DNA of 64,000 nt, from the IMG/VR virus record IMGVR_UViG_3300031555_007195, positions 1-64,000 of that record. One strand, written 5' to 3'. Shown here in pieces: positions 697-61,781 of this stretch (positions are counted from its first letter, which is position 1; the number at the start of each line of letters is the position of its first letter). The position numbers and the translations under genes are program-made. The DNA is from a virus. Taxonomy: Duplodnaviria > Caudoviricetes. The notes below the pieces were generated by a model. That model did not search any database. It was given only the letters and a program-made list of their open reading frames with translations, and was not told where the DNA came from.

Positions 697-1986
697 TTAT
701 TCCCACTCGATTGTGCCGGTTGGCTTTGGAGTAAGGTCGAATAGGACTCTGTTTACGCCCTTAACTTCGCTTGTGATACGGTTTGTGATATGCTGCAAAA
801 GATCGAATGGTACATTTTCAACAGATGCTGTCATAGCGTCTATTGTGTTAACTGCGCGGATGATTACGCACCATTCATCAGCACGCTTATTATCTCTTAC
901 GCCAACGCTCTTTATATCCGGAATAGCTGTAAAATACTGCCAAACCTTACCCTCAAGACCGTTTTTCGCAAATTCTTCTCTCAAAATAGCATCCGATTCG
1001 CGAACTGCTTCAAGTCTGTCCCTTGTGATAGCTCCAAGGCATCTTACGCCAAGACCCGGGCCCGGAAATGGCTGACGATAAACCATTGCATCAGGAAGAC
1101 CAAGCGCCACACCGCAAGCACGAACTTCGTCCTTAAACAGCATTTTAAGCGGTTCAACAAGCTCAAATTGAAGATCCTCCGGAAGTCCGCCTACGTTATG
1201 ATGAGATTTAACCGCCTTAACCGTCTTTGTGCCGGATTCAATAATATCAGGGTAAATTGTACCCTGTGCAAGGAACTCTATTCCCTCAAGCTTGCGAGCC
1301 TCTTCCTCAAATACTCGGATGAACTCCGCACCAATAATTTTTCGCTTACTCTCAGGGTCTGCCACTCCTGCAAGCTTATCTAAAAATCTATCCACCGCAT
1401 CAACGTAAACAAGATTTGCATCCATTTCATCACGGAAAACTCTGACAACTTCCTCAGGCTCGCCTTTTCTCAAAAGTCCATGGTTAACGTGAACGCAGGT
1501 AAGCTGTTTGCCGATAGCCTTAATCAACAGTGCCGCAACAACAGATGAGTCAACACCACCTGAAAGAGCCAAAAGAACCTTTTTATCTCCTACCTGTCGG
1601 CGAATAAGCTCAACCTGATCGGCAATGAAATTCTCCATATTCCAGTTTGTATCGCATCCGCAAACGTCGAAGATATAGCTTTTAAGTGCGGATTTTCTGT
1701 CTTCTACTGCCTCCGGCAAAGGTTCACTTCCCTTATGATTTGCACAAATCACCGGAATTCCGGAGTTGTACACAGCATCACTTGCATCAATTTCCACACC
1801 GTCTATAATATGATTAGGTCCTCCGTTTAGTATAATACCCTTTACATTTGGCAAGGCAGAAAGCTCTTCCACTGTAATATCGTGCGGGTAAATCTCGCTG
1901 TAAACACCAAGCCCACGAATTTCACGGGCAAGCTGAGCATTTTCCTCGCTGCCAAGGTCCAAAATCAAAATCATATCCTGCTTCAT
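697..1986 (-). CDS. guaA: GMP synthase with a shortened, degenerate glutamine amidotransferase domain
   Basis: ATP-PPase motif LALSGGVDSSV, VHVNHGLLR, KSHHNVGGLP, RQPFPGPGLGVR and C-terminal KPTGTIEWE; N-terminal ILILDLGS...GIILNGGP. Confidence 0.95.
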   Translation of the reverse strand: MKQDMILILDLGSEENAQLAREIRGLGVYSEIYPHDITVEELSALPNVKGIILNGGPNHIIDGVEIDASDAVYNSGIPVICANHKGSEPLPEAVEDRKSALKSYIFDVCGCDTNWNMENFIADQVELIRRQVGDKKVLLALSGGVDSSVVAALLIKAIGKQLTCVHVNHGLLRKGEPEEVVRVFRDEMDANLVYVDAVDRFLDKLAGVADPESKRKIIGAEFIRVFEEEARKLEGIEFLAQGTIYPDIIESGTKTVKAVKSHHNVGGLPEDLQFELVEPLKMLFKDEVRACGVALGLPDAMVYRQPFPGPGLGVRCLGAITRDRLEAVRESDAILREEFAKNGLEGKVWQYFTAIPDIKSVGVRDNKRADEWCVIIRAVNTIDAMTASVENVPFDLLQHITNRITSEVKGVNRVLFDLTPKPTGTIEWE

Positions 1987-2784: not shown

Positions 2785-2787
2785 TAA

Positions 2788-3215
2788 GTGAAATATCAAG
2801 CAACGCTTGATGTGAAATAATTTCTGTGAAATTGTGAAATAGAAAGCTTACGCTTTTCTGTGAAATGAAATAAATCCACACGCCGCAAGGCGTATTTCAC
2901 ATTGCAAAGCAATATTTCACGCACGAAGTACATTTCACAAATCCTGAAAGGATTTATTTCGTTGAAAAGAGCCGAACGGTTTAGATGCAACTTTGTTTTA
3001 GTGAAATATCTCACTTCGTTCGATATGAAATAATTCACTTCGTAAATCGTGAAATTTGATGCGTTGCATCAAGTGAAATGAAATAAATCCACACACCGCA
3101 AGGCGTATTTCACATTGCAAAGCAATATTTCACGCACGAAGTGCATTTCACAAATCCTGAAAGGATTTATTTCATTGAAAAGACGGTATATTCTATACAG
3201 AATATACCGTCTTTT
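2788..3215. repeat. Structured GTGAAAT/ATTTCAC hairpin array with a 111-bp direct repeat
   Basis: 2860-2970 and 3073-3183 are identical except for 3 substitutions. Units are GTGAAAT or ATTTCAC plus a short hairpin (18-24 bp). The array ends in a perfect 17-bp inverted repeat at 3178-3215. Confidence 0.9.
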
Positions 3216-3510: not shown

Positions 3511-3978
3511 ATGGCAATACAGTATTACATAGCGTATGGCTCAAACCTTCACACAAAACAAATGAAGGCTCGATGTCCTGATTCAAAGCTTATAACCACA
3601 GGACTTCTTAAGAACTATCAATTACTTTTCAAAGGTACGTATACTGGATATGCCACTGTGGTTCCTAAAGAAGGATATGACCTTCCGGTGGCAATTTATA
3701 CAGTATCAGATGATGATTTAAATCGTCTGGATAGATATGAAGGTGTGGCAAAGCGTGTATATTCAAGAGATGAGATTGACTTATCTGAAATTGAGTTTAA
3801 TGATACCCCTCTTAAGGGAAAAGCATTTATATACACAATGATTGACAAACCTGCTGTTGAGTTTTTGGCTCCGTCAATGCAGTATATGCACATACTTTGG
3901 TACGCCTACCGTGAGGAGCATGGGTTCAATATTGATTATCTCTACAACGCATTAAAAGACAGTGTATACAACAAATAG
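3511..3978 (+). CDS. Gamma-glutamylcyclotransferase (GGCT/AIG2-like) family protein, copy 1
   Basis: YIAYGSNL...QMKARCP...LDRYEG signature; RBS AAAGGAG. Confidence 0.88.
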   Translation: MAIQYYIAYGSNLHTKQMKARCPDSKLITTGLLKNYQLLFKGTYTGYATVVPKEGYDLPVAIYTVSDDDLNRLDRYEGVAKRVYSRDEIDLSEIEFNDTPLKGKAFIYTMIDKPAVEFLAPSMQYMHILWYAYREEHGFNIDYLYNALKDSVYNK

Positions 3979-3993
3979 AAAGGTGGTATTGTA

Positions 3994-4347
3994 ATGAAGG
4001 ACATTTTAATAAAACAAAATCAAGAAGTGGCTGATTTTCAGCATGTAGAATTATCAGGGTTTAGATTAAGTAATAAACTTGGTTCTGTATCTTTGTATGG
4101 GAAACTCAAAGCCTTTCCGGAAACCTATACATACCCTAAGTCACCGATTCGTATTCAGGCTGATTTTCTCGATGCCAATGGTAAAATTGAGAAAATTACG
4201 CATAGCTTATTCACATATGCATTAAACCATACCAACTACTTTGGTTTTTATATTCCATGTGGAAATATAAACATAGACGAGATTACATCCGTCGAGGTAT
4301 ATCCTGTCTTTCTTACATTTATAGATGATGCAGATGAAATGGAATGA
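3994..4347 (+). CDS. Hypothetical protein (possibly beta-sandwich, FxLYD-like)
   Basis: RBS GAAAGGTGG; operonic spacing; beta-strand pattern IRIQADFLDANG. The fold call is a weak guess. Confidence 0.6.
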   Translation: MKDILIKQNQEVADFQHVELSGFRLSNKLGSVSLYGKLKAFPETYTYPKSPIRIQADFLDANGKIEKITHSLFTYALNHTNYFGFYIPCGNINIDEITSVEVYPVFLTFIDDADEME

Positions 4348-4358
4348 GGTGAAAATTT

Positions 4359-5012
4359 ATGATTTATGCGATATCAGATATCCACGGAAACTATGCTCTT
4401 TTCAAAAAAGCAGTTAATTTTTTGAAAGAAGATGATGAGCTTATTGTTCTTGGTGACGCAATTGACCGAGGGTCTGACGGGTTCAAAATACTTCGAGAAA
4501 TTGCAAATAACCCACAAATTCAATTTACCCTTGGCAATCATGAGGATATGTTTATGAAATTTATCAAGGATGAAAACGATGCAGAGTTGAGAAAACTCTA
4601 TTTTGGAAACGGAGGTTTTCAAACCTTTGTTTCCTATAAAGAAGCGCCTTATGAAGAAAGAGTTTGTGTGGACAAACTTCTTATGTCTTCCTTGTATGGC
4701 TTGGGGTTGAAACTTGGTGGAATACAATTCTTCCTTTCCCATGCAGGGTGTTATGAGAACTTTCAGTTCCCGATTGAGAGTAGAAACTTCTTGTGGAATC
4801 GGGAATATTACAACCCTACGCACAAGAAAATCCCCAGCAATGTAATTGTAGTTCACGGCCATACACCAATGTCAGAAATATACCCTGCGGACGAGTTGGG
4901 TGTATACAATAATGGCAGAACGATATGTCTTGATACAGGTTTTAATTCCGGAAAACTACACTTGTTTTGTTTGGATACTCTTGAAATAACAGTAATTAAG
5001 GAGGATGAATGA
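4359..5012 (+). CDS. PPP/ApaH-type metallophosphoesterase, copy 1
   Basis: SDIHG, GDAIDRG, GNHE, SHAG, HGHT and DTG motifs. Confidence 0.9.
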   Translation: MIYAISDIHGNYALFKKAVNFLKEDDELIVLGDAIDRGSDGFKILREIANNPQIQFTLGNHEDMFMKFIKDENDAELRKLYFGNGGFQTFVSYKEAPYEERVCVDKLLMSSLYGLGLKLGGIQFFLSHAGCYENFQFPIESRNFLWNREYYNPTHKKIPSNVIVVHGHTPMSEIYPADELGVYNNGRTICLDTGFNSGKLHLFCLDTLEITVIKEDE

Positions 5013-5749
5013 TTATGATTGTTGAGAAGATTACTTCCGAGCTGAAATGCGGAAGGTCTGTTATTGTAAATGTTATAGACAAATATTCACTTGAAGAAAT
5101 AGCCAAAAGGCTTAAAAAACAAGGAATTGAACTTTCGGATGAAAATCCGAACATTCAATTCAAGTTAAGTTATACTCTACCATATCATGAATTTAATGGG
5201 ATAAAAGAACTTCAACTGGCTTTTAAAGAAGCAAAGCGTTTTAAAAAGTATTATAAAGGAATTGTCGCTATAGATTTAAGCGAATATGTTGGAAACGAAA
5301 ACGATGAGTACCTTGAAGTATTCTTAATGTTTTTGTATGATCATCGGCAGTGTTGCAAATATATTTTTTACGGACATTTGTCAAATGAACTGAAAGCAAC
5401 CATAAGCAAATATCTGCGTTGTGTTTTGGTTGAGTCATCTGCTAATGTACAGAAGCGGCAGTATTTAAAAAATCTTCTCGGAGAGAAAGAATATGAATAC
5501 GGTGTGAAATTTACGACAGGGGCAATAAATTTCTTATCAGGACTCTTTGCAAAAAATGAGCATTCATTCGAAAATCTTGTTGAGGATTTAATTGAAACAA
5601 GATGCTCAAAAACAAGCACAATCTCACCAACTGACATCACCACATATTTTGCAGATGTAAACTGTATCTATAAAGAAATCTACGATAAGGAGGAACTTTC
5701 AATTGAATACGAAATACGAGACAATTTGGCGAAAATACGCATTTCCTAA
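5009..5749 (+). CDS. Hypothetical protein, possibly a degenerate (Walker-A-less) AAA-like domain
   Basis: Overlaps the upstream stop (ATGA); Walker-B-like GIVAIDLSE; no GxxxxGKT. Confidence 0.5.
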   Translation: MIMIVEKITSELKCGRSVIVNVIDKYSLEEIAKRLKKQGIELSDENPNIQFKLSYTLPYHEFNGIKELQLAFKEAKRFKKYYKGIVAIDLSEYVGNENDEYLEVFLMFLYDHRQCCKYIFYGHLSNELKATISKYLRCVLVESSANVQKRQYLKNLLGEKEYEYGVKFTTGAINFLSGLFAKNEHSFENLVEDLIETRCSKTSTISPTDITTYFADVNCIYKEIYDKEELSIEYEIRDNLAKIRIS

Positions 5750-7247
5750 AAACGAAGCAGAGTTTGCCAATGAAGAGGATATAAAGCAGTACTATCCAAG
5801 GTTTAAACCAAACATCAAAGGAAATATCGCCGGAGGGTTACCTGTGTTTGTTTGCAATGATGGTACTTCATATGTAAATACCGAAACTGAACATTCTATC
5901 ATTTTTGGCGGAACGGGAAGCGGAAAAAGTCGCAGATTGATTGCTCCTCTTATATGCCAATTGGCGGAAGCCGGCGACGGTGGAAGTATGATAATCACAG
6001 ATGTTAAAGGTGAGTTCTCAACTGGAAGTTTATCAGGAAAAGTAAACGGTTGCCTTGATAAAAACGGATATACTAGGTATTTTCTTGACTTTCGAAATAT
6101 GCAAAGTGACTCTATTAATATCCTCGATTATCCATACCAGTTATACAGAGCCGGAAAAGAAGATTTGGCCGGTATGGAAATTGATAGTATTATTTCCACG
6201 TTAGCAAGCGGATATTCGGATGCCAGAGATCCCTTTTGGCATGAATCCGCCAGTTCCTTTATCAAGGGTCTGATTTTGCTCGCTTTCCGTCTTTGTCCTG
6301 CGGATGCGATTAATATGTCAACCATATTAAGCTTCTGCACATATAAGGGTTCTGAAGCTTTAGAAACTGCATTATCACATTTATCGAATATCAAAGGTAA
6401 TTCCACTTTGACTATGCTTGAGTCTGTACTAAGCAACCCTGAAAATACCAGAAGATGCGTTTTAAGCTCATCGGGTCAGCTTATACGATCTTTCACTAAT
6501 AACAATAAGTTATGTCAAATGTTAAGTCAGTCAAGCTTCAATCTAGAAGACTTATTAAAACCCAAAGTGGCATTATTTATAATTTTACCGGACGAAACGT
6601 CAAGTTATGATAATATTGCCGGCTTATTAATAAAACAGATAACTTCTTTTCTTGTAGAATCCGCTTATAAAACAAAAAACGGAATGCTTGAACATCGTAT
6701 AAATTTTATTTTAGATGAATTTTGCAACCTACTTGAACCCGGAAATAATACGGCGCAATTTGGGAGAGCATTATCAGCCTTTAGGTCTCGAAATATACGC
6801 TATTTTTTAGTGGCGCAAGGGCTTAATCAGCTCAAACATGTATATGGTAGTGATGCTGATATTATATTAGCTAATACTAAAAATCTATATTATCTTCAAA
6901 GCACAGATTTTACCTTATTAAACCATTTATCAGATACGTCTGGATTAACATTTGACAACATAAAAGAAGTTCCTAAACCACTTTTATCAGTCAATGATTT
7001 GCAAGGTTTACGCAAAACGCGGGATGCTACCGAAGTATACATAAAAACAGGTGATCTTCAAATTGTCACAAATTTTCCTGATATTGATTCAATCGAATGG
7101 TTACAACAGTACAGCAAAGCAAGAAACGACTTACCTGTTTATCGTCAAAAACCTGTCAATACATGGGGACCGGCAGACCTATTAAAACTACTAAAAAAAC
7201 GTACAGACAAAGAATTATCAAATCTTTTAAATGAGTACTTTGGATGA
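5703..7247 (+). CDS. VirD4/TraG-like coupling-protein ATPase lacking an N-terminal membrane anchor
   Basis: HSIIFGGTGSGKS (Walker A), IITDVKGE, DPFWHESA, FILDEFCN (Walker B), RSRNIRYFLVAQGLNQL..YG; TTG start with RBS AAGGAGG; no hydrophobic helix before the P-loop. Confidence 0.85.
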   Translation: MNTKYETIWRKYAFPKNEAEFANEEDIKQYYPRFKPNIKGNIAGGLPVFVCNDGTSYVNTETEHSIIFGGTGSGKSRRLIAPLICQLAEAGDGGSMIITDVKGEFSTGSLSGKVNGCLDKNGYTRYFLDFRNMQSDSINILDYPYQLYRAGKEDLAGMEIDSIISTLASGYSDARDPFWHESASSFIKGLILLAFRLCPADAINMSTILSFCTYKGSEALETALSHLSNIKGNSTLTMLESVLSNPENTRRCVLSSSGQLIRSFTNNNKLCQMLSQSSFNLEDLLKPKVALFIILPDETSSYDNIAGLLIKQITSFLVESAYKTKNGMLEHRINFILDEFCNLLEPGNNTAQFGRALSAFRSRNIRYFLVAQGLNQLKHVYGSDADIILANTKNLYYLQSTDFTLLNHLSDTSGLTFDNIKEVPKPLLSVNDLQGLRKTRDATEVYIKTGDLQIVTNFPDIDSIEWLQQYSKARNDLPVYRQKPVNTWGPADLLKLLKKRTDKELSNLLNEYFG

Positions 7248-7267
7248 TAATTGAAAGGAGAATTTTT

Positions 7268-7828
7268 ATGGAAACATTAACTATTGGAAAAAACGGTTCA
7301 TCTTTGAGGAGTATAGCCTCGCTTGAGTTCGAAAATAAACGAGTTGTGAGATTAACCGGAGAAATAAATGCAGAGCTTGCGGAGCGTGTTATTATAGAAC
7401 TTGAACATCTCGATTCAAGAGGTTCAGATGAAATCACATTGTATATCAATAGTCCCGGAGGCAGTGTGAGTTCCGGGTTTGCAATATATGATTGTTTAAG
7501 ACATATTAAATCACCCGTGAAACTCGTCGCAATTGGCGAATGTATGTCTATGGCTGCGATTTTGCTGGCGTCTGGAAAACAAGGTAAACGATTTGCCACT
7601 AGCAACTGCGAAATTATGATACACGAACCGTTAACGGCAACCTCCGGTAGCGCCTCGCATTTAAAAGTCCAGGTCTATAGAATCACAAGAATGAAAACTA
7701 AAATAGTCGCATTACTTTCTGAATGGACTAATCAAGATAAGGAGTATTTATCTCATCTTCTTGAAAAGGATACATTTATGACCAGTGAAGAAGCTCTTGA
7801 GTTTGGATTAATTGACGGAATCGTTTGA
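7268..7828 (+). CDS. clpP: ClpP-family peptidase (S14)
   Basis: YINSPGGSV, CMSMAA (catalytic Ser), MIHEP (His), EKDTFMTSEEALEFGLID (Asp); start reassigned to ATG 7268 after RBS GAAAGGAG. Confidence 0.9.
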   Translation: METLTIGKNGSSLRSIASLEFENKRVVRLTGEINAELAERVIIELEHLDSRGSDEITLYINSPGGSVSSGFAIYDCLRHIKSPVKLVAIGECMSMAAILLASGKQGKRFATSNCEIMIHEPLTATSGSASHLKVQVYRITRMKTKIVALLSEWTNQDKEYLSHLLEKDTFMTSEEALEFGLIDGIV

Positions 7829-7836
7829 TATAAAGC

Positions 7837-7867
7837 AAAGGGTGTCACCATTCGAGTGGCATCCTTT
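7837..7867 (+). terminator. Hairpin after clpP
   Basis: AAAGGGTGTCAC-cattcga-GTGGCATCCTTT (includes G-U pairs). Confidence 0.55.
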
Positions 7868-8187
7868 AGTTTATTCAAAACTTTATTTTTACAGCCATTC
7901 GCTATATTTAATTACTCATCCGAAAAAACATTTATAAATAAATACAAAAACATTTCGAAATATACTCCTTGTCCAAATGAAAAATTTGATAATCACATTA
8001 TAATAATATATATAAGCTATCCAATTGGGAAAAAGAATAAAAATTAAAAAAAGTTATTAAAAATGTTTTTTTCTCAAATGAACAACTTTTTAAAATAATT
8101 TATAATTAAGGCATACAAAACAAACAGCGTATAATAAAGCGATTAGCTTTCATTATAAATAAAAAACACAAAAAAGGAGTAATTATT

Positions 8188-9675
8188 ATGACAAACAAAT
8201 TTTACACAAAAGAGGAAATCGCAAACAACTTAAATGAAAGAAATGTATATGAAGCAGAGATTTTGGAAGTAAGACCTTCAACTATTCTTTTTAAAGTTGT
8301 TGATTCAGATGCCAAAGCACTGGCACATATCAAAGACATATCCGTTGTAAGGTTATCAGATCTTAGAGAAGTATTTCAACCAGGTGAAATCTGGCCTATA
8401 GTCATTAAAGATTGTACAGCGGAAGAAATGGACGGATATACAAGAATTCGCATGACTGCTGCTATGAATCCTATTTTTGGAAATAGAGAGCATGTTATGA
8501 AACAGATGGGGAGCTTACCAATGCAATTACCTATCTGCGAGAACAAAGTTGATTATAATCTCTGCATAGCATTATCGCCCAACTATACAGCTTTGATTGA
8601 AGATAATAAGAGGTTTAATAACAAGGAAAGTGTGCTTGCTTCTATTGCGTTCATTTCGGAACGAGGTAAATTCAGATTGAATATTCATGAAGAAGCAGTA
8701 GAATGTTGTAAAACAAAAAATGAATTGATGAAAGAACTTTTTAATTTGTATAAGATTGATATTTCTAATCTACCTACATACATAGATATTCAAGCTTTTA
8801 GAAATCAGCAGATTGGATTACTTCCAGGGAATGATAATCATACACCATGCGTAAAACCAGATCCTGAATTATCGATTTTAGAACCGGAAAACTGTCGTGT
8901 GTATCCGCAGCACTCCATGTTAAGAGCAACAGAATTTGATACATTTATCAGAGAAATTGCATGCAATGCAAAAATACTGAAAATTCTTGATGTTGCGGAC
9001 AAGCTTTTCTATTACTTCACAGCGGAGCAACTTTTTAATATTTGCAACGATAAAGCAATTAATCATATTTTCATGAATAAGATGAAGTCATTTGAACTAT
9101 TTTCGCACACAAAAATTACATCAGCGAATGGCAAAGCTAATGTATATACAACAGCTAAAAATGCTCGTCATCTTTCAATGCGAGTTATGCCTTTGCGAGA
9201 TCAGGTAACTACAGACGCTAATTGGTTATTGCGTCATTTGTCAATTAACAAAATTCTCTTAAAACTCTATAAAACAGATAATACCATTATTAACACTGTA
9301 GCAAGAAACCATTTTTTTGTAAGTGGAAATGAGAAGTTTCGTGCATTAGCGCTTATTGAAAAAGATAAACTTATTGTCGATTCAATAAGAAGTGAAAATG
9401 ATATAGAAACAATGTTAAGCAAGTTAATCAGAATGGACGCTGTGTTTAATGCTTTAAATGATAAATACACCGTATACATAACAGCACGAACAGAATTCAT
9501 TGAAAATGCTCTTCGTTCCCACTTGGAAAATATTGTTTTTTCGAATATCATAATTAAAACAACAAATGATATATCGTTTGAAAATGATATGGTTATTAAT
9601 GAAGTAGAAACTAAAATCTCCCCAAAGAAAGCGTCTTTTTGGGGTAAAGTAAACTCTTTGATTGCAACATTTTAA
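8188..9675 (+). CDS. S1 RNA-binding-domain protein fused to a wHTH / replication-relaxation-like C-terminal domain
   Basis: N-terminal S1 pattern VYEAEILEV...ALAHIKDIS...LREVFQPGE; C-terminal FTAEQL...VYT...LRHLSINKILLKL resembles the Replic_Relax family; RBS AAAGGAG. Confidence 0.55.
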   Translation: MTNKFYTKEEIANNLNERNVYEAEILEVRPSTILFKVVDSDAKALAHIKDISVVRLSDLREVFQPGEIWPIVIKDCTAEEMDGYTRIRMTAAMNPIFGNREHVMKQMGSLPMQLPICENKVDYNLCIALSPNYTALIEDNKRFNNKESVLASIAFISERGKFRLNIHEEAVECCKTKNELMKELFNLYKIDISNLPTYIDIQAFRNQQIGLLPGNDNHTPCVKPDPELSILEPENCRVYPQHSMLRATEFDTFIREIACNAKILKILDVADKLFYYFTAEQLFNICNDKAINHIFMNKMKSFELFSHTKITSANGKANVYTTAKNARHLSMRVMPLRDQVTTDANWLLRHLSINKILLKLYKTDNTIINTVARNHFFVSGNEKFRALALIEKDKLIVDSIRSENDIETMLSKLIRMDAVFNALNDKYTVYITARTEFIENALRSHLENIVFSNIIIKTTNDISFENDMVINEVETKISPKKASFWGKVNSLIATF

Positions 9676-9757
9676 ATCAAAAAGGAACCGTAACTTCCCG
9701 GAAGACATACCAATCTAAACTTTCGGGAAGTGAGGGTACGTAATGGAGGTGTGTTAT

Positions 9758-10189
9758 TTGTCAAATTATTATATTGCATATGGAATAAATATGAATCAAG
9801 AACATTTTAAATCATTGTGTAAAAATAGCACTTTTATTTCATCTGGGTATTTGTGCGACTATAGACTTGAGTTTAAGACCTTTGCCAACATCGTACATGA
9901 TAAAAACGCTCAAGTTCCCATTGTTGTATGGAAAATCAGTGATGAGGAATTAAAGAAAATCGATTTATATGAAGGTAGTTTATATGAGCGAATTATGATA
10001 CCACTTAATTTAGTTGAGTGTAAAAGTAACTTGACAGGAAATGCTTATGTGTACACAATGACACAAAATGAAAAAAATGTTATATTACCTACCCCACAAA
10101 AATATATTGATACAATTGCAGAAGCATATAAAGTTCTGGATTTCGAACTATTGGCTTTGTATGCTGCGATATATTCTGCTGAAGAATGA
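9758..10189 (+). CDS. Gamma-glutamylcyclotransferase family protein, copy 2
   Basis: YIAYGINM...IDLYEG...AYVYTM; likely TTG start at 9758 after GGAGGTG. Confidence 0.85.
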   Translation: MSNYYIAYGINMNQEHFKSLCKNSTFISSGYLCDYRLEFKTFANIVHDKNAQVPIVVWKISDEELKKIDLYEGSLYERIMIPLNLVECKSNLTGNAYVYTMTQNEKNVILPTPQKYIDTIAEAYKVLDFELLALYAAIYSAEE

Positions 10190-10198
10190 GGTGAGTAG

Positions 10199-10870
10199 GT
10201 GATGATATACGCAATTTCTGATATACATGGGAATAAACAATTATTCGATAAAGTTGTAGAGACAATTAAAACAGATAAAGACTATTATCTATATATTTTG
10301 GGTGATTGTATTGACAGATGCGATAAAGGATTAGAAATTTTAGAAAGCATTTCGAACAATAACGAACGTATGAAACTTATAATTGGCAATCATGAAAAAT
10401 TTCTATTAAACTATATCATCAATGTTAATGATATCGAAAATCGAAACCAATGGGTTTATAATGGAGGATATAAAACATTAAAACAATATGATTCCTGCAA
10501 TTGCGAAAAACAAAAAAACATATTAGAACTTTTACAATCAGCCCCATCAATGATTACTGTTAACGCTAACAAAGAAAAAAACTTTATACTATCTCACTCC
10601 GGAGCTAATTGGAGTGACCTTGTAAATCCAAACTTTGAAGCAAAAAACTGTATTTCGAATCGTATCCATTTTTTAGCATACGAGGACATTCCTGATGGTT
10701 GGTATATGGTCCATGGCCATACTCCAGATAGCAATATTCCTCTCCCGATAATCGGTAACGGTTTTTACAATAACAATCATAAAATTAACCTCGATTGTTC
10801 AACATATATTAGCAACACTGTAAGGTTACTCAACCTGGATACATTAGAAATTCAATTAATAACAGAATAA
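10199..10870 (+). CDS. PPP/ApaH-type metallophosphoesterase, copy 2
   Basis: SDIHG, GDCIDR, GNHE, SHSG, HGHT and NLDC motifs. Confidence 0.88.
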   Translation: MMIYAISDIHGNKQLFDKVVETIKTDKDYYLYILGDCIDRCDKGLEILESISNNNERMKLIIGNHEKFLLNYIINVNDIENRNQWVYNGGYKTLKQYDSCNCEKQKNILELLQSAPSMITVNANKEKNFILSHSGANWSDLVNPNFEAKNCISNRIHFLAYEDIPDGWYMVHGHTPDSNIPLPIIGNGFYNNNHKINLDCSTYISNTVRLLNLDTLEIQLITE

Positions 10871-11029: not shown

Positions 11030-11353
11030 ATGAAAAAGATTACGAAAACTATAGTAGCGGTGGCAATTTTAGCAACAATGGCAACACAATCGGCTTTTGC
11101 ATATTCACCTATTGAGCAGGCAAAACAATACCTGTGGAAAAATCAAGCTACAACTACTATTTGTGGATGGAGTTGCATGTTTTCTGGAGGTATGCGTTTG
11201 CACCGAAATGCTTGTCCAAATTGCGACAGCCATAGTTACAAGGTGTTATCAGTTGAGAATTGTCAAACAGATCTGCTCTTCGGAAATCATTTGAGATATG
11301 AATTCAGGGAGTGTTCATCTTGCCGAACAAAGTATAAAGGACCTCAATATTAA
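11030..11353 (+). CDS. Secreted cysteine-rich small protein
   Basis: Signal peptide MKKITKTIVAVAILATMATQSAFA; CPNC and CSSC pairs; RBS AAAGGAG; TATAAT upstream near 10935. Confidence 0.7.
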   Translation: MKKITKTIVAVAILATMATQSAFAYSPIEQAKQYLWKNQATTTICGWSCMFSGGMRLHRNACPNCDSHSYKVLSVENCQTDLLFGNHLRYEFRECSSCRTKYKGPQY

Positions 11354-14913: not shown

Positions 14914-16491
14914 TTATAATATTATTTTCTGACCGTTTTTAAATAAAACTGTATATTTTTTGCAGTGTGAAACCTCAACCCTTTCAACAAGTGTTAACCA
15001 GAGTTCCTCATCAAATGAAGTTATAGATTCCGGCTTGTTTCGTAGTGCTTCGATAAAAGTTTGCATTTCACGCTCTTTGTTGATGCGTTCGTTTCTTTCA
15101 GCTGTAGCTATACTCAGCCTTTTCTCGGCTTTTTCATATCTGCGGACAAGACTGTTATATTTCTTTGTGTATGTATCCTGCGACTGTTTTTTTCGTGCGT
15201 TTTCATTTACGCATTGACTTACAAGTTCAGAAACAACCTTTAGCTCTTCGTTGAGACTTTCAATCTCTGCATCAAGTTCGGTGCGGTCACATATCGTTTT
15301 AATCATAAGTTGGCAATCTTCAATTACCTTTGTTTTATTTGCCATTACAATATTGTATGCCTCAACAAAGATTTGATGAATTTCCTCAGTGGTGAGATGC
15401 GGTGTTTTACACTTTTTCTCGTTTTTGAATTTACCGTTGCATTGGTAAATTGTAGCTTTGTATTTATCCTTTGAATGCCAAAGTTTGGCACCATAGAAAC
15501 CACCGCAATCAGCACACACTATTTTTGATGCATATATATTATTTCCGCTGTAAGATTTTCCAAGTTTTTCTCGTCTTGACATTTCTGTCTGAACAATATC
15601 AAACTCTAATTTCGGAATAATAGCCGGATGACTATCTTCTACATAGTACTGTGGAACTTCACCCTCATTAACCTTCATTTTCTTTGTAAGGAAATCAACC
15701 GTGAACTTCTTCTGCAGAAGCGCATCACCTTTATATTTTTCGTTTGTGAGAATACTATGAACCGTAGATTGACTCCACTTTGGTTTCCCGGAAACTGTAG
15801 GAATGCCCAATTTTTCAAGTTCTCGGCAAATGCCACTCGGTGTTTTTCCACCCATAAAGAGCTTGTATATTAGGCGGACGATTTTTGCCTCAGCTTCGTT
15901 TATGACAGGTTTGCCATCTTCACCTTTATCATAACCAAGGAAACGTTTGTAGTTCATTTTAACTTTACCATCGGAGAACCTTTTTCGTTGACCCCAGGTC
16001 ACATTTTCAGAAAGGCTTCGGCTTTCTTCCTGGGCAAGGCTCGACATAATAGTTATGAGAAGTTCGCCTTTAGAATCGAATGTGTATATATTTTCCTTTT
16101 CAAAGAAAACCTCGGTTCCGTTTTCCTTGAGCATACGAACTGTTACAAGGCTATCGACCGTGTTTCTTGCGAAACGGCTGACTGATTTTGTAACAATAAG
16201 GTCTATTTTCCCTGCAAGTGCATCTGCAACCATTTCATTGAAGCCATCGCGGTGTTTTGTGTTAGTACCCGAAATACCCTCATCAGTATAAATCTTTACA
16301 AAAATCCAATCTTCTCTTTGGCTAATGAATTTGGTATAGTAATCAATCTGTGCTTCGTAACTTGTAAACTGTTCGTCACTGTCTGTTGATACACGCGCAT
16401 AAGCGGCGACCTTCCTTTTTGCAACAGATGTTGTGGCAATTGAAGTAAACTTATTTTTTGTTGCCGGTATAACTCTTACAGCTTTACTCAT
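14914..16491 (-). CDS. Large serine recombinase A
   Basis: VAAYARVST, TKSVSRFARN, recombinase domain NEKYKGD, zinc ribbon CADCG...YQCNGK, coiled coil. Confidence 0.92.
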   Translation of the reverse strand: MSKAVRVIPATKNKFTSIATTSVAKRKVAAYARVSTDSDEQFTSYEAQIDYYTKFISQREDWIFVKIYTDEGISGTNTKHRDGFNEMVADALAGKIDLIVTKSVSRFARNTVDSLVTVRMLKENGTEVFFEKENIYTFDSKGELLITIMSSLAQEESRSLSENVTWGQRKRFSDGKVKMNYKRFLGYDKGEDGKPVINEAEAKIVRLIYKLFMGGKTPSGICRELEKLGIPTVSGKPKWSQSTVHSILTNEKYKGDALLQKKFTVDFLTKKMKVNEGEVPQYYVEDSHPAIIPKLEFDIVQTEMSRREKLGKSYSGNNIYASKIVCADCGGFYGAKLWHSKDKYKATIYQCNGKFKNEKKCKTPHLTTEEIHQIFVEAYNIVMANKTKVIEDCQLMIKTICDRTELDAEIESLNEELKVVSELVSQCVNENARKKQSQDTYTKKYNSLVRRYEKAEKRLSIATAERNERINKEREMQTFIEALRNKPESITSFDEELWLTLVERVEVSHCKKYTVLFKNGQKIIL

Positions 16492-17785
16492 GTGTTTTTC
16501 TCCTTTCCAATGTTTTCAGACGAGCCTCTTCCTTCATTTCAGGTGTCCAACTTTCTCTACGTGAACGGTCTTGCCATTCTCTTTCAACAATATGCCCATC
16601 TTTAAAAACAAACTGTAAATGATTTGCTTTCGGAACAATAATTTTTTCAATCAATGTTTCAAACAGCTCTGCGTCAAATTCCGGCAAACCAAGAACTTCC
16701 GCCGATACCGCACACAAAGTTTCATCAGGAATCTGCTTCGATGCACACTCTTTTTTGCCAAGCTTATCGAATGTTGAACATATCCAAACTACTCTGGCTG
16801 TTGTCACTTTCCGTCTGAAATTCTTATTGCAGTTTCCGCATACAATTTTACCTGTAAACGCATATTTCTGAAGTTCTGTTTTCTTTAAATATTTTCTTTT
16901 TCGTCGTTCAAATTCCGTTTGAACTTGGTTGAACATTTCCCTCGAAATAATAGGTTCGTGGTTGTTCTCCACATAATACTGCGGTTTTTCACCATTGTTT
17001 TTCCTTGTCTTTTTTGTTAAATGGTCGGTTCTAAATGATTTTTGCAAAAGTAGATCTCCGATATATTTTTCATTTGATAAAATATATCGAACTTTCTTTT
17101 CTGTCCACCTGCTATTTGTGTTGCTTTTAATGCCGTGCTCATTTAGTTCAGTGGCTATCTTCAATATACCAAAGCCGTCTAAAAATAATCTGTATATCTG
17201 CTTTACAATTTCTGCCTCGTATGGCACAATTTCTAAACCACCATCTGCTGTTCTTTTATATCCGTAAATATTTTGAACTGACATAGGAAGAATACCTTGT
17301 TCAAAGTCGTTATGAATGCGCCACTTTACGTTTTCACTCACCGACAAACTTTCTTCCTGTGCATATGATGCCAAAATTGTGAGCATAAGTTCACCGTCCG
17401 CACTTAATGTGTTAATGTTCTGTTCCTCGAAGAAAATTCCGATACCGAAATTTTTAAGTTCTCTCACAGTTTCAAGTAATGTGACGGTGTTTCGAGCAAA
17501 CCTTGATATGCTCTTGGTAATTACCATATCAATTTTCCCTGCACGGCAATCTGCTATAAGTCGTTGAAAGTCTGCACGATTATCCTTTGTACCGGTAAGA
17601 GCTTCATCAGCATATACACCAACATACTCCCAATCATCGTGGGATTGTATGTAGTCGCTATAGTAACTCACCTGTGCCGACAAAGAATGTAGCATCGCAT
17701 CCTTTCCGTTTGAAACACGGGTATATGCTGCAACATTTTTCTTTTTGTCTAAGCTTGGAATAGCCTTTATTTCGGTAATTCTCAT
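16484..17785 (-). CDS. Large serine recombinase B
   Basis: VAAYTRVS, TKSISRFARN, NEKYIGD, CGNC...WICST; start reassigned to MRITEIK after GGAGGTG. Confidence 0.92.
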   Translation of the reverse strand: MRITEIKAIPSLDKKKNVAAYTRVSNGKDAMLHSLSAQVSYYSDYIQSHDDWEYVGVYADEALTGTKDNRADFQRLIADCRAGKIDMVITKSISRFARNTVTLLETVRELKNFGIGIFFEEQNINTLSADGELMLTILASYAQEESLSVSENVKWRIHNDFEQGILPMSVQNIYGYKRTADGGLEIVPYEAEIVKQIYRLFLDGFGILKIATELNEHGIKSNTNSRWTEKKVRYILSNEKYIGDLLLQKSFRTDHLTKKTRKNNGEKPQYYVENNHEPIISREMFNQVQTEFERRKRKYLKKTELQKYAFTGKIVCGNCNKNFRRKVTTARVVWICSTFDKLGKKECASKQIPDETLCAVSAEVLGLPEFDAELFETLIEKIIVPKANHLQFVFKDGHIVEREWQDRSRRESWTPEMKEEARLKTLERRKTHE

Positions 17786-17792
17786 TGATATA

Positions 17793-18011
17793 TTACACCT
17801 CCTTGTGTGGTATATTACCGTCATTTTGACTATATATCAACCCATTATCGAAAAATATACTACACGATTCTACGCCGTACTTTTGTGCAATTCTTGTATT
17901 AATTTTAGAGTAATCTTCAGCGGATATTAACCCAATTTCAAGCATTGTTTTTGCTTGTTTCATAGAGGCTTTGTAAGATGCTACATTTTTATAAAGCTCA
18001 ATACTATCCAT
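17793..18011 (-). CDS. Small SHOCT-like protein preceding the recombinase pair
   Basis: MDSIELYKNVASYKASMKQAKTMLEIGLISAEDYSKIN; RBS AAAGGAGG; typical position before paired recombinases. Confidence 0.7.
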   Translation of the reverse strand: MDSIELYKNVASYKASMKQAKTMLEIGLISAEDYSKINTRIAQKYGVESCSIFFDNGLIYSQNDGNIPHKEV

Positions 18012-33919: not shown

Positions 33920-34783
33920 TTATCTCTTCATAAGATTTAATCGTTCCATAAGTTCACTTACAGAGCGACCGCTTTGGGGATTAGCGGTGTTGGTTGTTTT
34001 GGGTGAGTTATAATGCTGTGAAAGTTTTGTCATCAATGCATTGTCCGATGCTCTTCTTGAGAACATCATTGCACTAACTGTGTTTTCCGAAGGTGCCGGA
34101 GGAGTAGACTTTTTCTTTTCCTCCTCATCATCGGTTTCTTCTTCGGGAGTTTCAGCCGGAGGAGTATCCTCGGTCTGTTCAGGTGTTGCTTCTTCAGTTC
34201 CGAGTTCGATTTCTTCTTCGTCCTCGTCATCCTCATCGTTGTTTCTGAAAAGAATGTCATCCGCAAAACCAAGCTCCACAGCTTTGTAAGCATTCATCCA
34301 TGTTTCGGAATCCATAAGGTGTGATATCTTTGCTCTCGACATTCCTGTCTTGAGATGATAAGCATTGATGATGGATTCCTTGACCTCATCAAGCATCTCG
34401 ATTGCTTTCTGCATATCCCCGGCATTGCCCATTGCAACTGTCATAGGGTTATGAATCATAAGCATTGAGACGGGCGACATTAAAACTGTATTGCCTGCCA
34501 TAGCAATAACAGATGCTGCCGATGCAGCGATGCCATCAATTTTGATGGTTACATTGCCGTTGTAATCCTTCAGCATATTGTAAATCTGTGCGGCAGCTAC
34601 ACAGTCACCACCGGGAGAGTTAATCCAAACAGTTACATCACCGTCCCCGGAGAACAATTCATCTTTAAAAAGCTGTGGTGTGACATCATCATCAAACCAG
34701 CTCTCTTCGGCGATTGTTCCGTTGAGGTGAAGAATCCTTGCTTGGGTCTCCTCGTTGTTCGTCCAGTTCCAGAACTTCTTCAT
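33920..34783 (-). CDS. ClpP-type head maturation protease
   Basis: WINSPGGD, IDGIAASAAS, MIHNP, ETWMNA; acidic linker and C-terminal scaffold-like tail. Confidence 0.9.
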   Translation of the reverse strand: MKKFWNWTNNEETQARILHLNGTIAEESWFDDDVTPQLFKDELFSGDGDVTVWINSPGGDCVAAAQIYNMLKDYNGNVTIKIDGIAASAASVIAMAGNTVLMSPVSMLMIHNPMTVAMGNAGDMQKAIEMLDEVKESIINAYHLKTGMSRAKISHLMDSETWMNAYKAVELGFADDILFRNNDEDDEDEEEIELGTEEATPEQTEDTPPAETPEEETDDEEEKKKSTPPAPSENTVSAMMFSRRASDNALMTKLSQHYNSPKTTNTANPQSGRSVSELMERLNLMKR

Positions 34784-58765: not shown

Positions 58766-58766
58766 T

Positions 58767-61763: not shown

Positions 61764-61781
61764 AATGTTAGGAGGTTATCT

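What the first reader, a model, noticed from the sequence alone, without database searches (positions are those of the whole stretch)
3511..10870. Candidate undescribed system: GGCT + phosphatase + anchorless VirD4-like ATPase + ClpP + S1 fusion
Seen: nine co-oriented, tightly spaced genes in an AT-rich island: GGCT, unknown, PPP phosphoesterase, degenerate ATPase-like protein, VirD4-like ATPase, ClpP, S1 fusion, GGCT, PPP phosphoesterase. No VirB4, VirB6, pilin or cell-wall hydrolase is present. Known: GGCT folds cleave gamma-glutamyl/isopeptide links, PPP/ApaH enzymes remove phosphates or cleave dinucleoside polyphosphates, and ClpP needs an ATPase partner. Inference: a mobile modification-erasing and proteolysis module (counter-defence, defence or stress control) in which a T4CP-fold motor is repurposed, possibly feeding ClpP. 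I recognise no named system with this content.
Basis: partly seen in the sequence, partly recalled or inferred. Interest (0 to 1): 0.82.

Follow-up and report, generated by a model that had tools for sequence, protein, structure and literature searches.

The report
Anchorless coupling-protein ATPase paired with ClpP
Three of the nine genes (an inactive AAA+-like protein, a membrane-less relative of conjugation "coupling" ATPases, and an extra ClpP protease) form a conserved, apparently undescribed module that recurs in gut and rumen Bacillota, often beside immune genes. The other six genes are local passengers.

Summary
The nine co-oriented genes are real, and eight of the nine labels hold. 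"S1 fusion" has only weak structural support. The nine genes are not one system. Only the middle three recur elsewhere: a ~250-aa AAA+-fold protein with no Walker A (no Pfam family), a ~500-aa VirD4/TrwB-fold ATPase with no membrane anchor, and a catalytically intact ClpP paralogue.

This trio appears in the same order, overlapping or tightly spaced, in 13 non-redundant loci from Lachnospiraceae, Oscillospiraceae, Acutalibacteraceae, Erysipelotrichaceae and others. The flanks differ each time and no type IV secretion genes are present. The trio ATPases form one well-supported clade, separate from 68 longer coupling proteins. Those checked have two N-terminal hydrophobic segments, and the one context I inspected (L010) is a conjugation cluster.

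The GGCT, phosphatase and 495-aa genes do not travel with the trio. A terminator-like hairpin after clpP splits the window into two transcription units.

Neighbourhoods are rich in immune genes: type I RM and McrBC in this record; TIR, CARF/Cas10, STAND and kinase-nuclease proteins elsewhere.

Best reading: a conflict or defence module in which a coupling-protein-derived ring ATPase controls or feeds a dedicated ClpP. Physical coupling is inferred, not shown. I found no named system or paper describing it.

The parts
5009..5749 (+). CORE 1: 246-aa pseudo-AAA+ protein. It has an alpha/beta core plus a helical lid, no Walker A, and a conserved Walker-B-like 'VAID.SEW.GHE' motif.
   Evidence: AF2 pLDDT 83. 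AAA+ fold. No Pfam, NCBIfam, PADLOC or PHROG hit. The family has 463 representatives at E<=1e-3. It lies directly upstream of the T4CP-like gene in 17 loci.
5703..7247 (+). CORE 2: 514-aa anchorless VirD4/TrwB-fold ATPase. Walker A is GGTGSGKS at 69-76 and Walker B is LDEF at 337-340. It has an all-alpha domain and a conserved aromatic N-terminal tail (Y.YE.DW..YAFP type) where relatives have TM helices.
   Evidence: PF02534, PF10412 and PF12696. AF2 pLDDT 85, with top PDB matches Cagbeta, TrwBdeltaN70 and DotL. Clade support 100. Motifs. The TTG start overlaps the upstream gene by 47 nt.
7244..7828 (+). CORE 3: 194-aa ClpP paralogue. The Ser102-His127-Asp176 triad is kept; the N-terminal ~30 aa (axial loop region) diverge.
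   Evidence: PF00574 E 4e-53. NCBIfam ClpP models score below their cut-offs. It aligns to S. aureus ClpP only from residue 31. The triad is conserved in 12-13 trio ClpPs. It is an extra copy beside the housekeeping ClpP in related genomes.
7837..7867 (+). Terminator-like hairpin (12-bp stem) just after the clpP stop. The 359-nt AT-rich spacer that follows holds promoter-like sites and an RBS before 8188.
3511..3978 (+). ACCESSORY: GGCT/AIG2-like protein 1, first gene of the trio operon in this window only.
   Evidence: PF06094 and phrog_2520 E 3e-29. It is not found at other trio loci.
3994..4347 (+). ACCESSORY: 117-aa protein of unknown function.
   Evidence: No family hit. No homologue in the fetched loci.
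4359..5012 (+). ACCESSORY: lambda/NinI-like PPP phosphatase 1. Its stop overlaps the start of the pseudo-AAA+ gene by 4 nt.
   Evidence: PF00149 and phrog_246. It is not conserved with the trio.
8188..9675 (+). ACCESSORY, second unit: 495-aa orphan protein. The N-terminal part is weakly S1/OB-like and the C-terminal part weakly Replic_Relax-like, by structure only.
9743..10189 (+). ACCESSORY: GGCT/AIG2-like protein 2 (32% identical to copy 1).
10199..10870 (+). ACCESSORY: PPP phosphatase 2 (39% identical to copy 1).

Best explanation
The functional unit is the three-gene operon core at 5009-7828, not the nine genes. A soluble ring ATPase descended from conjugative type IV coupling proteins has lost its membrane anchor. 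In its place it carries a conserved aromatic N-terminal tail. It works with an ATP-blind AAA+-fold partner and a dedicated, catalytically competent ClpP paralogue.

Most likely mechanism (inferred): the pseudo-AAA+ protein assembles or gates the ATPase ring. The ring uses its all-alpha substrate-receptor domain to select proteins and hands them to ClpP for destruction. Coupling proteins normally recognise relaxases and other transferred proteins, so the targets may be proteins of incoming mobile DNA or phage. In that reading this is a ClpP protease with its usual AAA+ unfoldase replaced by an FtsK/HerA-superfamily motor, used as an immunity or conflict module carried in defence islands.

GGCT1, the 117-aa gene and PPP1 (co-transcribed here) and the 495-aa/GGCT2/PPP2 unit are window-specific cargo of phage/ICE type.

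Shown: the module is conserved, its ATPases form one clade, the folds are as stated, the catalytic motifs are intact, and the neighbourhoods hold immune genes. Inferred: physical ATPase-ClpP coupling, the substrates, and the defence role.
For: Recurrence:
- The trio occurs in the same order and strand in the window plus L001, L002, L003, L004, L005, L008, L012, L013, L014, L016, L020 and L025, with unrelated flanks.
- ClpP follows 13 of the 15 ATPases in the clade. One of the other two sits at a contig end (L015).
- Among the 68 long relatives, ClpP was detected within the fetched flanks of only one (L010). That copy is on the opposite strand beside whiA and looks like the housekeeping gene.

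Phylogeny:
- The trio ATPases form a clade with support 100, separate from the long T4CP clade, also at 100.
- ClpP subclades mirror the ATPase subclades. Trio ClpPs are extra copies beside a higher-scoring housekeeping ClpP.

Protein features:
- T4CP fold (Cagbeta, TrwB, DotL).
- Invariant Walker A Lys and Walker B Asp-Glu.
- ClpP triad kept but the axial N-terminus divergent.
- AAA+ fold without a P-loop in the upstream partner.
- Gene overlaps suggest translational coupling.

Variants: the same pseudo-AAA+/ATPase pair occurs with other downstream genes (DUF1963 with TPR, or TPR alone) in L017, L018, L037 and L066. A conserved core with swappable partners is typical of conflict systems.

Context:
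- Type I RM, McrBC and a kinase-TPR protein lie in the same low-GC island in this record.
- Near other trios: NADAR-DarT1, TIR-VWA, Pkinase-TIR, kinase-Card1-nuclease giants, and Cas10/Cas6/CARF and ThsB matches.
- The family is rare (4 of 401 Lachnospirales-order genomes). It was not found in 72,556 plasmids or 50,697 phage records.
Against: - There is no direct evidence that the ATPase touches ClpP.
- No IGF/LGF-type docking tripeptide is evident in either partner.
- T4CP and HerA-family rings are best known as DNA translocases, not unfoldases.
- The Walker A motif is non-canonical in part of the clade (TGSKKT, SGMKKS), so ATPase activity is not assured everywhere.
- One clade member (L011) lacks the adjacent ClpP, and its genome has only the housekeeping copy.
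- The defence role rests on neighbourhood alone, without a control for background enrichment.
- Some trio loci sit beside housekeeping genes (L001, L003, L004).
- The ClpP tree does not strongly support a single origin (45/90).
Confidence: 0.42

Rival explanations
1. HerA-style sensor/scaffold model. The ring ATPase loads on or translocates foreign DNA, as its ancestors do. On sensing it, the ring switches on the associated ClpP, which degrades host or invader proteins indiscriminately (abortive infection). The protease is an effector activated by the ATPase; substrates are not threaded through the ring.
For: After the T4CPs, the next structural matches are HerA hexamers from the SIR2-HerA, HerA-DUF and TdpAB defence complexes. 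There are weak PADLOC hits to mad8 and HerA models. The partner genes after the ATPase are swappable (ClpP, DUF1963, TPR), as in HerA-effector systems. The context is defence-island-like.
Against: ClpP is a gated chamber that normally needs substrate delivery. No nuclease or DNA-binding partner is conserved. The conserved all-alpha domain of T4CPs is also a protein-substrate receptor. I ran no test that separates this model from the best explanation.
Confidence: 0.25
2. A housekeeping-type regulated proteolysis or stress module. The trio is an alternative Clp protease for endogenous substrates and has no role in conflict with mobile elements.
For: Several trio loci sit among ordinary genes: SmpB, a Met ABC transporter and DUF1292 in L001; ArgS and SpoVG in L003 and L004. 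ClpP paralogues with specialised roles are known in other bacteria (established knowledge).
Against: The distribution is patchy and rare (4 of 401 genomes). Locations are variable, the islands are low in GC, branches are long, and immune genes are often adjacent. These features fit accessory, horizontally moving genes.
Confidence: 0.15
3. One reading: all nine genes form one mobile 'modification-erasing plus proteolysis' system, in which GGCT removes gamma-glutamyl or isopeptide marks and PPP removes phosphates for the ATPase-ClpP machine.
For: GGCT1, the 117-aa gene and PPP1 are packed against the trio, and PPP1 overlaps the pseudo-AAA+ start by 4 nt. A GGCT-PPP pair occurs twice in the island at only 32% and 39% identity, so this is not a recent duplication. 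One GGCT homologue lies about 2 kb from a variant pair in L032.
Against: None of GGCT, PPP, the 117-aa gene or the 495-aa gene accompanies the trio in the 12 other loci. Elsewhere GGCT homologues partner with Amidoligase_2 on ICE or phage DNA, or sit before terS. Only one phage record holds both genes, 40 kb apart. A terminator-like hairpin separates the second unit.
Confidence: 0.06
4. A remnant or minimal mobilisation module of an integrative mobilisable element. The soluble coupling protein and the 495-aa protein (possible Replic_Relax-like C-terminal half) recruit the island's DNA to a helper T4SS, and ClpP is incidental.
For: The ATPase is T4CP-derived and its best NCBIfam match is the 'CD1115 family VirD4-like conjugal transfer protein'. 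The 495-aa C-terminal half structurally resembles clusters that include Replic_Relax members (TM 0.42/0.63). Serine recombinases lie 4 kb to the right. L005 has an integrase and a second T4CP-like gene.
Against: A coupling protein without a membrane anchor cannot dock to a T4SS in the known way. No relaxase family was detected. The 495-aa protein is an orphan absent from all other trio loci. ClpP linkage is the conserved feature. The family is absent from 72,556 plasmids. The recombinases belong to the adjacent prophage.
Confidence: 0.07

Closest known systems
Type IV coupling proteins (VirD4, TrwB, Cagbeta, DotL; Pfam PF02534, PF10412, PF12696)
   Same: Same fold and domain set: nucleotide-binding domain, all-alpha domain and TraG-D_C, with Walker A and B motifs. 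The top structural matches are Cagbeta, TrwBdeltaN70 and DotL. It is 30-35% identical to T4CPs of Bacillota conjugative elements.
   Different: It has no N-terminal TM anchor and no C-terminal extension (about 500 aa against 675-1097 aa). No T4SS or relaxase genes lie nearby. It is always preceded by a pseudo-AAA+ gene and usually followed by clpP, and it forms a separate clade.
AAA+/ClpP proteases (ClpXP, ClpCP, ClpAP, ClpEP)
   Same: A bona fide ClpP with a Ser-His-Asp triad, 40-47% identical to housekeeping ClpPs, encoded next to a ring ATPase.
   Different: The active ATPase belongs to the FtsK/HerA/T4CP superfamily, not AAA+. The only AAA+-fold protein lacks a P-loop. No IGF-like loop is seen, and the ClpP axial N-terminus diverges.
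HerA-effector defence systems (SIR2-HerA, DUF4297-HerA, TdpAB; MADS Mad7/Mad8)
   Same: An FtsK/HerA-superfamily hexameric ATPase is paired with an effector in defence islands. It shows structural similarity to HerA defence complexes and weak PADLOC mad8 and HerA hits.
   Different: The ATPase is of the T4CP lineage, not HerA. The effector is a ClpP protease, not SIR2 or a nuclease. A third, pseudo-AAA+ component is conserved. No PADLOC model reaches a convincing score.
NCBIfam NF045973 'VirD4-like conjugal transfer protein, CD1115 family' (442-position model)
   Same: It is the best curated match (E 1e-62, 212 bits), covering residues 59-413.
   Different: The score is below the curated cut-off of 250 bits. 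A separate 441-443-aa paralogue, probably closer to that family, lies near the trio in L005 and L025.
Amidoligase_2 + GGCT/AIG2 pairs on phages and conjugative elements
   Same: The window's GGCT proteins belong to the same MGE-borne GGCT group: 38-43% identical to members next to Amidoligase_2 and to the GGCT of Heliusvirales gut phages.
   Different: No amidoligase is present in the window. Here each GGCT is followed by a NinI-like phosphatase, a pairing I did not find elsewhere.

Membership tests
Type IV coupling protein (functional T4CP of a conjugation/T4SS apparatus) | VirD4/TrwB nucleotide-binding plus all-alpha domain fold | tested here: met
   PF02534 E 1e-28, PF10412, PF12696. Foldseek matches Cagbeta at E 1e-14 and TrwB at E 3e-13.
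Type IV coupling protein (functional T4CP of a conjugation/T4SS apparatus) | N-terminal transmembrane anchor | tested here: not met
   No hydrophobic segment lies before the Walker A motif. In the alignment, an aromatic soluble tail occupies the position where L010 and L029 have two TM helices.
Type IV coupling protein (functional T4CP of a conjugation/T4SS apparatus) | Encoded with a relaxase and/or T4SS genes (VirB4-type ATPase, channel, hydrolase) | tested here: not met
   None is present in the island or the 73.8-kb record, nor at the other trio loci. The long relative in L010 does sit with TraC/VirB4-like and M23 genes.
ClpP (Pfam PF00574; ATP-dependent Clp protease proteolytic subunit) | ClpP fold with a Ser-His-Asp catalytic triad | tested here: met
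   PF00574 E 4e-53. It aligns to S. aureus ClpP with S, H and D conserved. S102 and H127 are invariant and D176 nearly so across trio ClpPs.
ClpP (Pfam PF00574; ATP-dependent Clp protease proteolytic subunit) | Equivalog-level identity with housekeeping ClpP (NCBIfam TIGR00493 / PRK00277 cut-offs) | tested here: not met
   It scores 157.5 against 308.6 bits, and 173.2 against 249 bits. Related genomes hold a separate, higher-scoring housekeeping ClpP.
Canonical AAA+/ClpP protease (ClpXP/ClpCP type) | Active AAA+ unfoldase partner with Walker A and an IGF/LGF-type ClpP-docking loop | tested here: not met
   The only AAA+-fold protein lacks a P-loop. No conserved h-G-h docking tripeptide is seen in A1 or A2. 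Whether either partner binds ClpP could not be settled with these tools.
HerA-effector defence systems (Gao_Her; PADLOC HerA models) | HerA-family ATPase that matches the system's profile | tested here: not met
   PADLOC HerA models match only at E 7e-5 to 8e-3, over the P-loop segment 63-117. By sequence and structure the protein is closer to T4CPs.
Any PADLOC v2 defence system | Component profiles hit at a significant level | tested here: not met
   Eight of the nine proteins give no hit. The ATPase hits mad8 weakly (E 8e-9, 33.5 bits).
Anti-phage or anti-MGE defence system (functional class) | Protects cells against phage or incoming DNA | not testable with these tools
   Only context is available: RM, McrBC, TIR, CARF, Cas10, STAND and kinase-nuclease neighbours.
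S1 RNA-binding domain protein (for the 495-aa ORF) | Match to the S1/OB profile | tested here: inconclusive
   No Pfam hit at E <= 0.1. Only an ESM-Atlas structural match with TM 0.33/0.50 over residues 3-218.

The most novel reading that the evidence does not exclude
The trio is the first ClpP protease driven by a non-AAA+ motor. A soluble hexamer descended from conjugative coupling proteins, helped by a pseudo-AAA+ adaptor, recognises the translocation signals of relaxases or other transferred proteins and threads them into a dedicated ClpP. This would give cells a protein-level immunity against incoming conjugative elements, and possibly phage.
Probability: 0.18. Interest if true: 0.92.

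Novelty: new variant of a known kind. Interest (0 to 1): 0.72.

Why it matters
Every characterised ClpP partner is an AAA+ unfoldase, and every characterised type IV coupling protein is a membrane-anchored gatekeeper of a secretion channel. A conserved operon joins a membrane-free coupling-protein ATPase to its own ClpP and to an uncharacterised pseudo-AAA+ family (about 460 sequence clusters, no Pfam entry).

This suggests one of two things: a new way of powering a chambered protease, or a new ATPase-effector immune module. If coupling proteins can pass polypeptides to a protease, that also bears on the open question of how T4CPs handle protein substrates.

The module is small (2.8 kb, three genes), so it can be tested directly by expression, pull-down and challenge assays.

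Tried and rejected
- Complex prediction with all three proteins (alignments A2, A1, A3; ClpP as partner) returned 'no answer', score 0.00. This is evidence neither way. Four earlier submissions failed because the machine was busy.
- The IQ-TREE search on 88 ATPases did not finish, so I used FastTree.
- The 495-aa protein has no homologue apart from itself, so I built no alignment-based model. The S1 and Replic_Relax likenesses rest on the Atlas model only.
- Close-relative scans of viral contigs for GGCT1 and PPP2 found nothing. The trio ATPase has only 5 distant relatives (28-30%) in IMG/VR.
- The pseudo-AAA+ protein has no tblastn match in the plasmid or phage collections.
- The region has no near-identical DNA in the phage collection.
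- Rejected: ClpP as this prophage's head protease. The prophage has its own at 33920-34783, and the trio ClpP scores higher on cellular ClpP models than on head-maturation models.
- Rejected: trio ATPase as a phage packaging ATPase. No capsid genes occur at the trio loci.
- Eight full-text literature searches found no description of a ClpP/T4CP module (six aimed at it; two on side topics: 69, 93). Subscription-only papers were not searched.
- One redundant repeat of the GGCT phage search.

Full report
**Setting.** The window is the first 64 kb of a 73.8-kb IMG/VR record.
- A siphovirus-type prophage occupies about 14.9-54.6 kb on the minus strand. It carries two tandem serine recombinases, an endolysin, a tape measure protein, a major capsid protein, its own ClpP-like prohead protease at 33920-34783, a portal, a large terminase, a methyltransferase, a primase, PolA and an SNF2 helicase.
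- On both sides lie plus-strand, low-GC stretches (0.31-0.37 against 0.39-0.44).
- The left stretch (about 3.5-14 kb) holds the finding.
- The right stretch holds type I RM (hsdM/S/R), an M78-peptidase protein, McrB/McrC and a kinase-TPR protein.
- The finding therefore sits in what looks like a defence island split by, or adjoining, a prophage. That the two halves were once contiguous is my inference.

**The observation.**
- All nine ORFs are present with the stated coordinates and orientation.
- Profile searches confirm two GGCT/AIG2 proteins, two lambda/NinI-type PPP phosphatases, a VirD4-like ATPase and a ClpP.
- The two GGCT copies are 32% identical and the two phosphatases 39%, so these are old paralogues or independent acquisitions.
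- The 246-aa protein has no family hit. It folds confidently (pLDDT 83) into an AAA+ alpha/beta core plus helical lid. VIA Z is 10-11 to ORC3, RFC, ClpX, Mpa and HslU, all tied, so I cannot assign an AAA+ clade. It lacks any P-loop and keeps a Walker-B-like 'VAID.SEW.GHE' motif.
- The ATPase has no hydrophobic segment before its Walker A motif.
- The 'S1 fusion' label for the 495-aa ORF is not supported by sequence. It has only weak structural support.
- A 12-bp-stem hairpin directly after the clpP stop is followed by an AT-rich 359-nt spacer with promoter-like sites and a strong RBS. This suggests two transcription units, 3511-7828 and 8188-10870.

**What recurs.** I seeded a search with the ATPase.
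- It found a small group of ~460-530-aa relatives at 33-48% identity, then more than a thousand 700-900-aa relatives at about 30%.
- Every short relative I looked up had the same arrangement: a ~230-260-aa gene, the ATPase overlapping or abutting it, then a ~186-195-aa ClpP.
- A long relative sat in a conjugation cluster with TraC/VirB4-like and M23-peptidase genes.
- I then scanned one genome per species (80 loci kept) and ran BLAST, HMM and clustering on all fetched loci.
- This gives 13 non-redundant trio loci: the window, L001-L005, L008, L012-L014, L016, L020 and L025.
- They come from Lachnospiraceae (including Blautia), Oscillospiraceae, Faecousia, Acutalibacteraceae, Erysipelotrichaceae and unclassified MAGs.
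- Only these three gene families are shared among the loci. No locus has the window's GGCT, PPP, 117-aa or 495-aa genes.
- In a FastTree phylogeny the ClpP-linked ATPases form one clade of 15. Thirteen have ClpP, L015 ends at the contig edge, and L011 lacks ClpP. Support is 100, and the clade is separate from the clade of 68 long proteins (100).
- The long proteins whose Walker A could be located have two N-terminal hydrophobic segments.
- Between the two clades lie ClpP-less variants. In the Izemoplasmatales loci L017 and L018, a pseudo-AAA+ gene and the ATPase are followed by DUF1963 and a TPR protein. In L037 and L066 the ATPase is followed by a TPR protein. L032 has a pseudo-AAA+ gene plus a 711-aa ATPase beside a DUF4062-STAND-TPR protein.
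- The pseudo-AAA+ family is sizeable: 463 cluster representatives at E <= 1e-3 and 329 at <= 1e-10.
- Distant members sampled from it are again immediately followed by a T4CP-like gene (L094, L102, L104).
- The family is rare: 4 of 401 sampled genomes of the order that contains Blautia. A single-sequence tblastn found it in neither 72,556 plasmids nor 50,697 phage records.

**The three proteins.**
- The ATPase model (pLDDT 85, pTM 0.85) best matches Cagbeta, TrwBdeltaN70 and DotL, and then HerA hexamers, including those of antiphage complexes.
- The Walker A lysine and the Walker B Asp-Glu are invariant in the clade. Part of the clade has unusual P-loops (TGSKKT, SGMKKS).
- Where long relatives have TM helices, the clade has a conserved aromatic tail of the type Y.YE.DW..YAFP, or KYEAAYAGYVYE in the second subclade. 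It is modelled with low confidence, as expected for a flexible docking peptide. A role in docking to ClpP or to the partner is my conjecture.
- The ClpP keeps Ser102, His127 and Asp176. It aligns to solved ClpPs only from residue 31, so the axial-loop region that contacts ClpX-type partners has diverged.
- The Tyr of the 'LYINSPGG' pocket motif varies in one subclade.
- Genomes with the trio also have a higher-scoring housekeeping ClpP (267-296 bits against 185-216). The genome of L011, which lacks the adjacent ClpP, has only the housekeeping copy.
- ClpP subclades mirror ATPase subclades. A single origin of trio ClpPs is compatible with the tree but not strongly supported.

**Mechanism.** Three things are shown:
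- A conserved, co-evolving, probably co-translated three-gene unit.
- Catalytic residues present for ATP hydrolysis and for proteolysis.
- Loss of every feature that ties a coupling protein to a secretion channel.

Three steps are inferred:
- The ATPase and ClpP act together physically.
- The pseudo-AAA+ protein is an assembly or regulatory subunit. There is precedent for small regulators of T4CPs: CagZ on Cagbeta, entry 8dol.
- The module serves in conflict with mobile elements.

The third step rests on patchy distribution, low GC, swappable downstream partners and immune-gene neighbours. Those neighbours are RM and McrBC here, and NADAR-DarT1, TIR-VWA, Pkinase-TIR, kinase-Card1 nuclease, Cas10/Cas6/CARF and ThsB-like genes elsewhere. 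I did not run a background control for that enrichment.

I favour substrate delivery to ClpP (0.42 for the overall reading) over a DNA-sensing HerA-like activator model (0.25). Nothing I could compute separates them. The one complex prediction gave no verdict.

**The other six genes.**
- GGCT homologues of this group are common cargo of gut Bacillota phages, where they sit next to terS in Heliusvirales.
- They also occur on conjugative or integrative elements, immediately after an Amidoligase_2 gene.
- NinI-like phosphatases are widespread phage genes.
- In the phage records I inspected (one neighbourhood; both genes in one record only, 40 kb apart) and in the two other GGCT contexts I fetched, the two are not adjacent.
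- In this window GGCT1, the 117-aa gene and PPP1 are fused into the trio operon, with PPP1 overlapping the next gene by 4 nt. A local functional link cannot be excluded, but it is not a property of the module.

**Comparison with known systems and novelty.**
- The ATPase has the T4CP fold but fails two defining features of a working coupling protein: the membrane anchor and the T4SS/relaxase context.
- The protease is a ClpP by fold and triad, but it is not the housekeeping equivalog.
- The assembly is not a ClpXP/ClpCP-type protease, because no active AAA+ partner is present.
- It matches no PADLOC system.
- The nearest analogies are HerA-effector defence pairs and AAA+/ClpP proteases.
- I rate it a new variant of those known themes, with a minority chance that it is a categorically new protease machine.
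- An earlier first-stage note of this scan (e1-5854764) flagged the same triad on this same stretch. That is not independent evidence.

Noticed in passing
window 2787-3183 (- strand motifs at 2889-2964 and 3102-3177): Two tandem copies of the Gut-1 RNA motif (Rfam RF01706, 69.4 and 72.9 bits, above the gathering score of 50). They lie inside a 213-bp tandem duplication (97% identity), upstream of a 23S-rRNA-IVP four-helix-bundle gene (2377-2733, -). As far as I know the function of Gut-1 is unknown.
   Followed up: partly
window 697-1986 (-): The guaA-like ORF is only 429 aa. The GATase domain matches HMM positions 1-76 of 190 only, then the ATP-PPase and C-terminal domains follow. This may be an internal deletion or a pseudogene at the island's left edge.
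   Followed up: no
window 55248-63269 and record 63322-73500 (L105): A defence island lies to the right of the prophage. It holds type I RM hsdM/S/R, an M78-peptidase protein, McrB (AAA_5) with McrC, two unknown proteins (511 and 623 aa) and a kinase-TPR protein of 1128 aa.
   Followed up: partly
window 14914-17824 (-): Two overlapping large serine recombinases in tandem (525 and 446 aa) at the prophage end, reminiscent of CcrA/CcrB-type pairs. Attachment sites were not identified.
   Followed up: no
L005 9523-10848 (-) and L025 3320-4651 (+): A second anchorless T4CP-like paralogue (441-443 aa) with a ~380-400-aa unknown partner lies within 5 kb of the trio in two unrelated loci. It may be a sister module, perhaps the true CD1115 family.
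   Followed up: no
L017 7060-13371; L018; L037 7935-10518; L066: ClpP-less variants: the pseudo-AAA+/anchorless ATPase pair followed by DUF1963 and a TPR protein (Izemoplasmatales), or the ATPase followed by a TPR protein. This suggests exchangeable downstream partners.
   Followed up: partly
L120 816-2334; L122 3984-5498: GGCT homologues (40-41% identical to the window's GGCT1) sit immediately after Amidoligase_2 (PF12224) genes, on DNA that carries serine recombinases or VirB4-like, NlpC/P60 and Fic genes.
   Followed up: partly
L008 3585-7088; L013 11974-16212: Giant proteins of 1167-1412 aa lie beside two trio loci. The L013 protein has a Pkinase match and both have a weak Card1-like endonuclease match. 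L008 also has a 1746-aa protein with a weak RdRP match.
   Followed up: no
window 11030-11353 (+): A 107-aa protein with a signal-peptide-like N-terminus and a Cys-rich zinc-ribbon-like C-terminus, just downstream of PPP2. It has no confident family.
   Followed up: no
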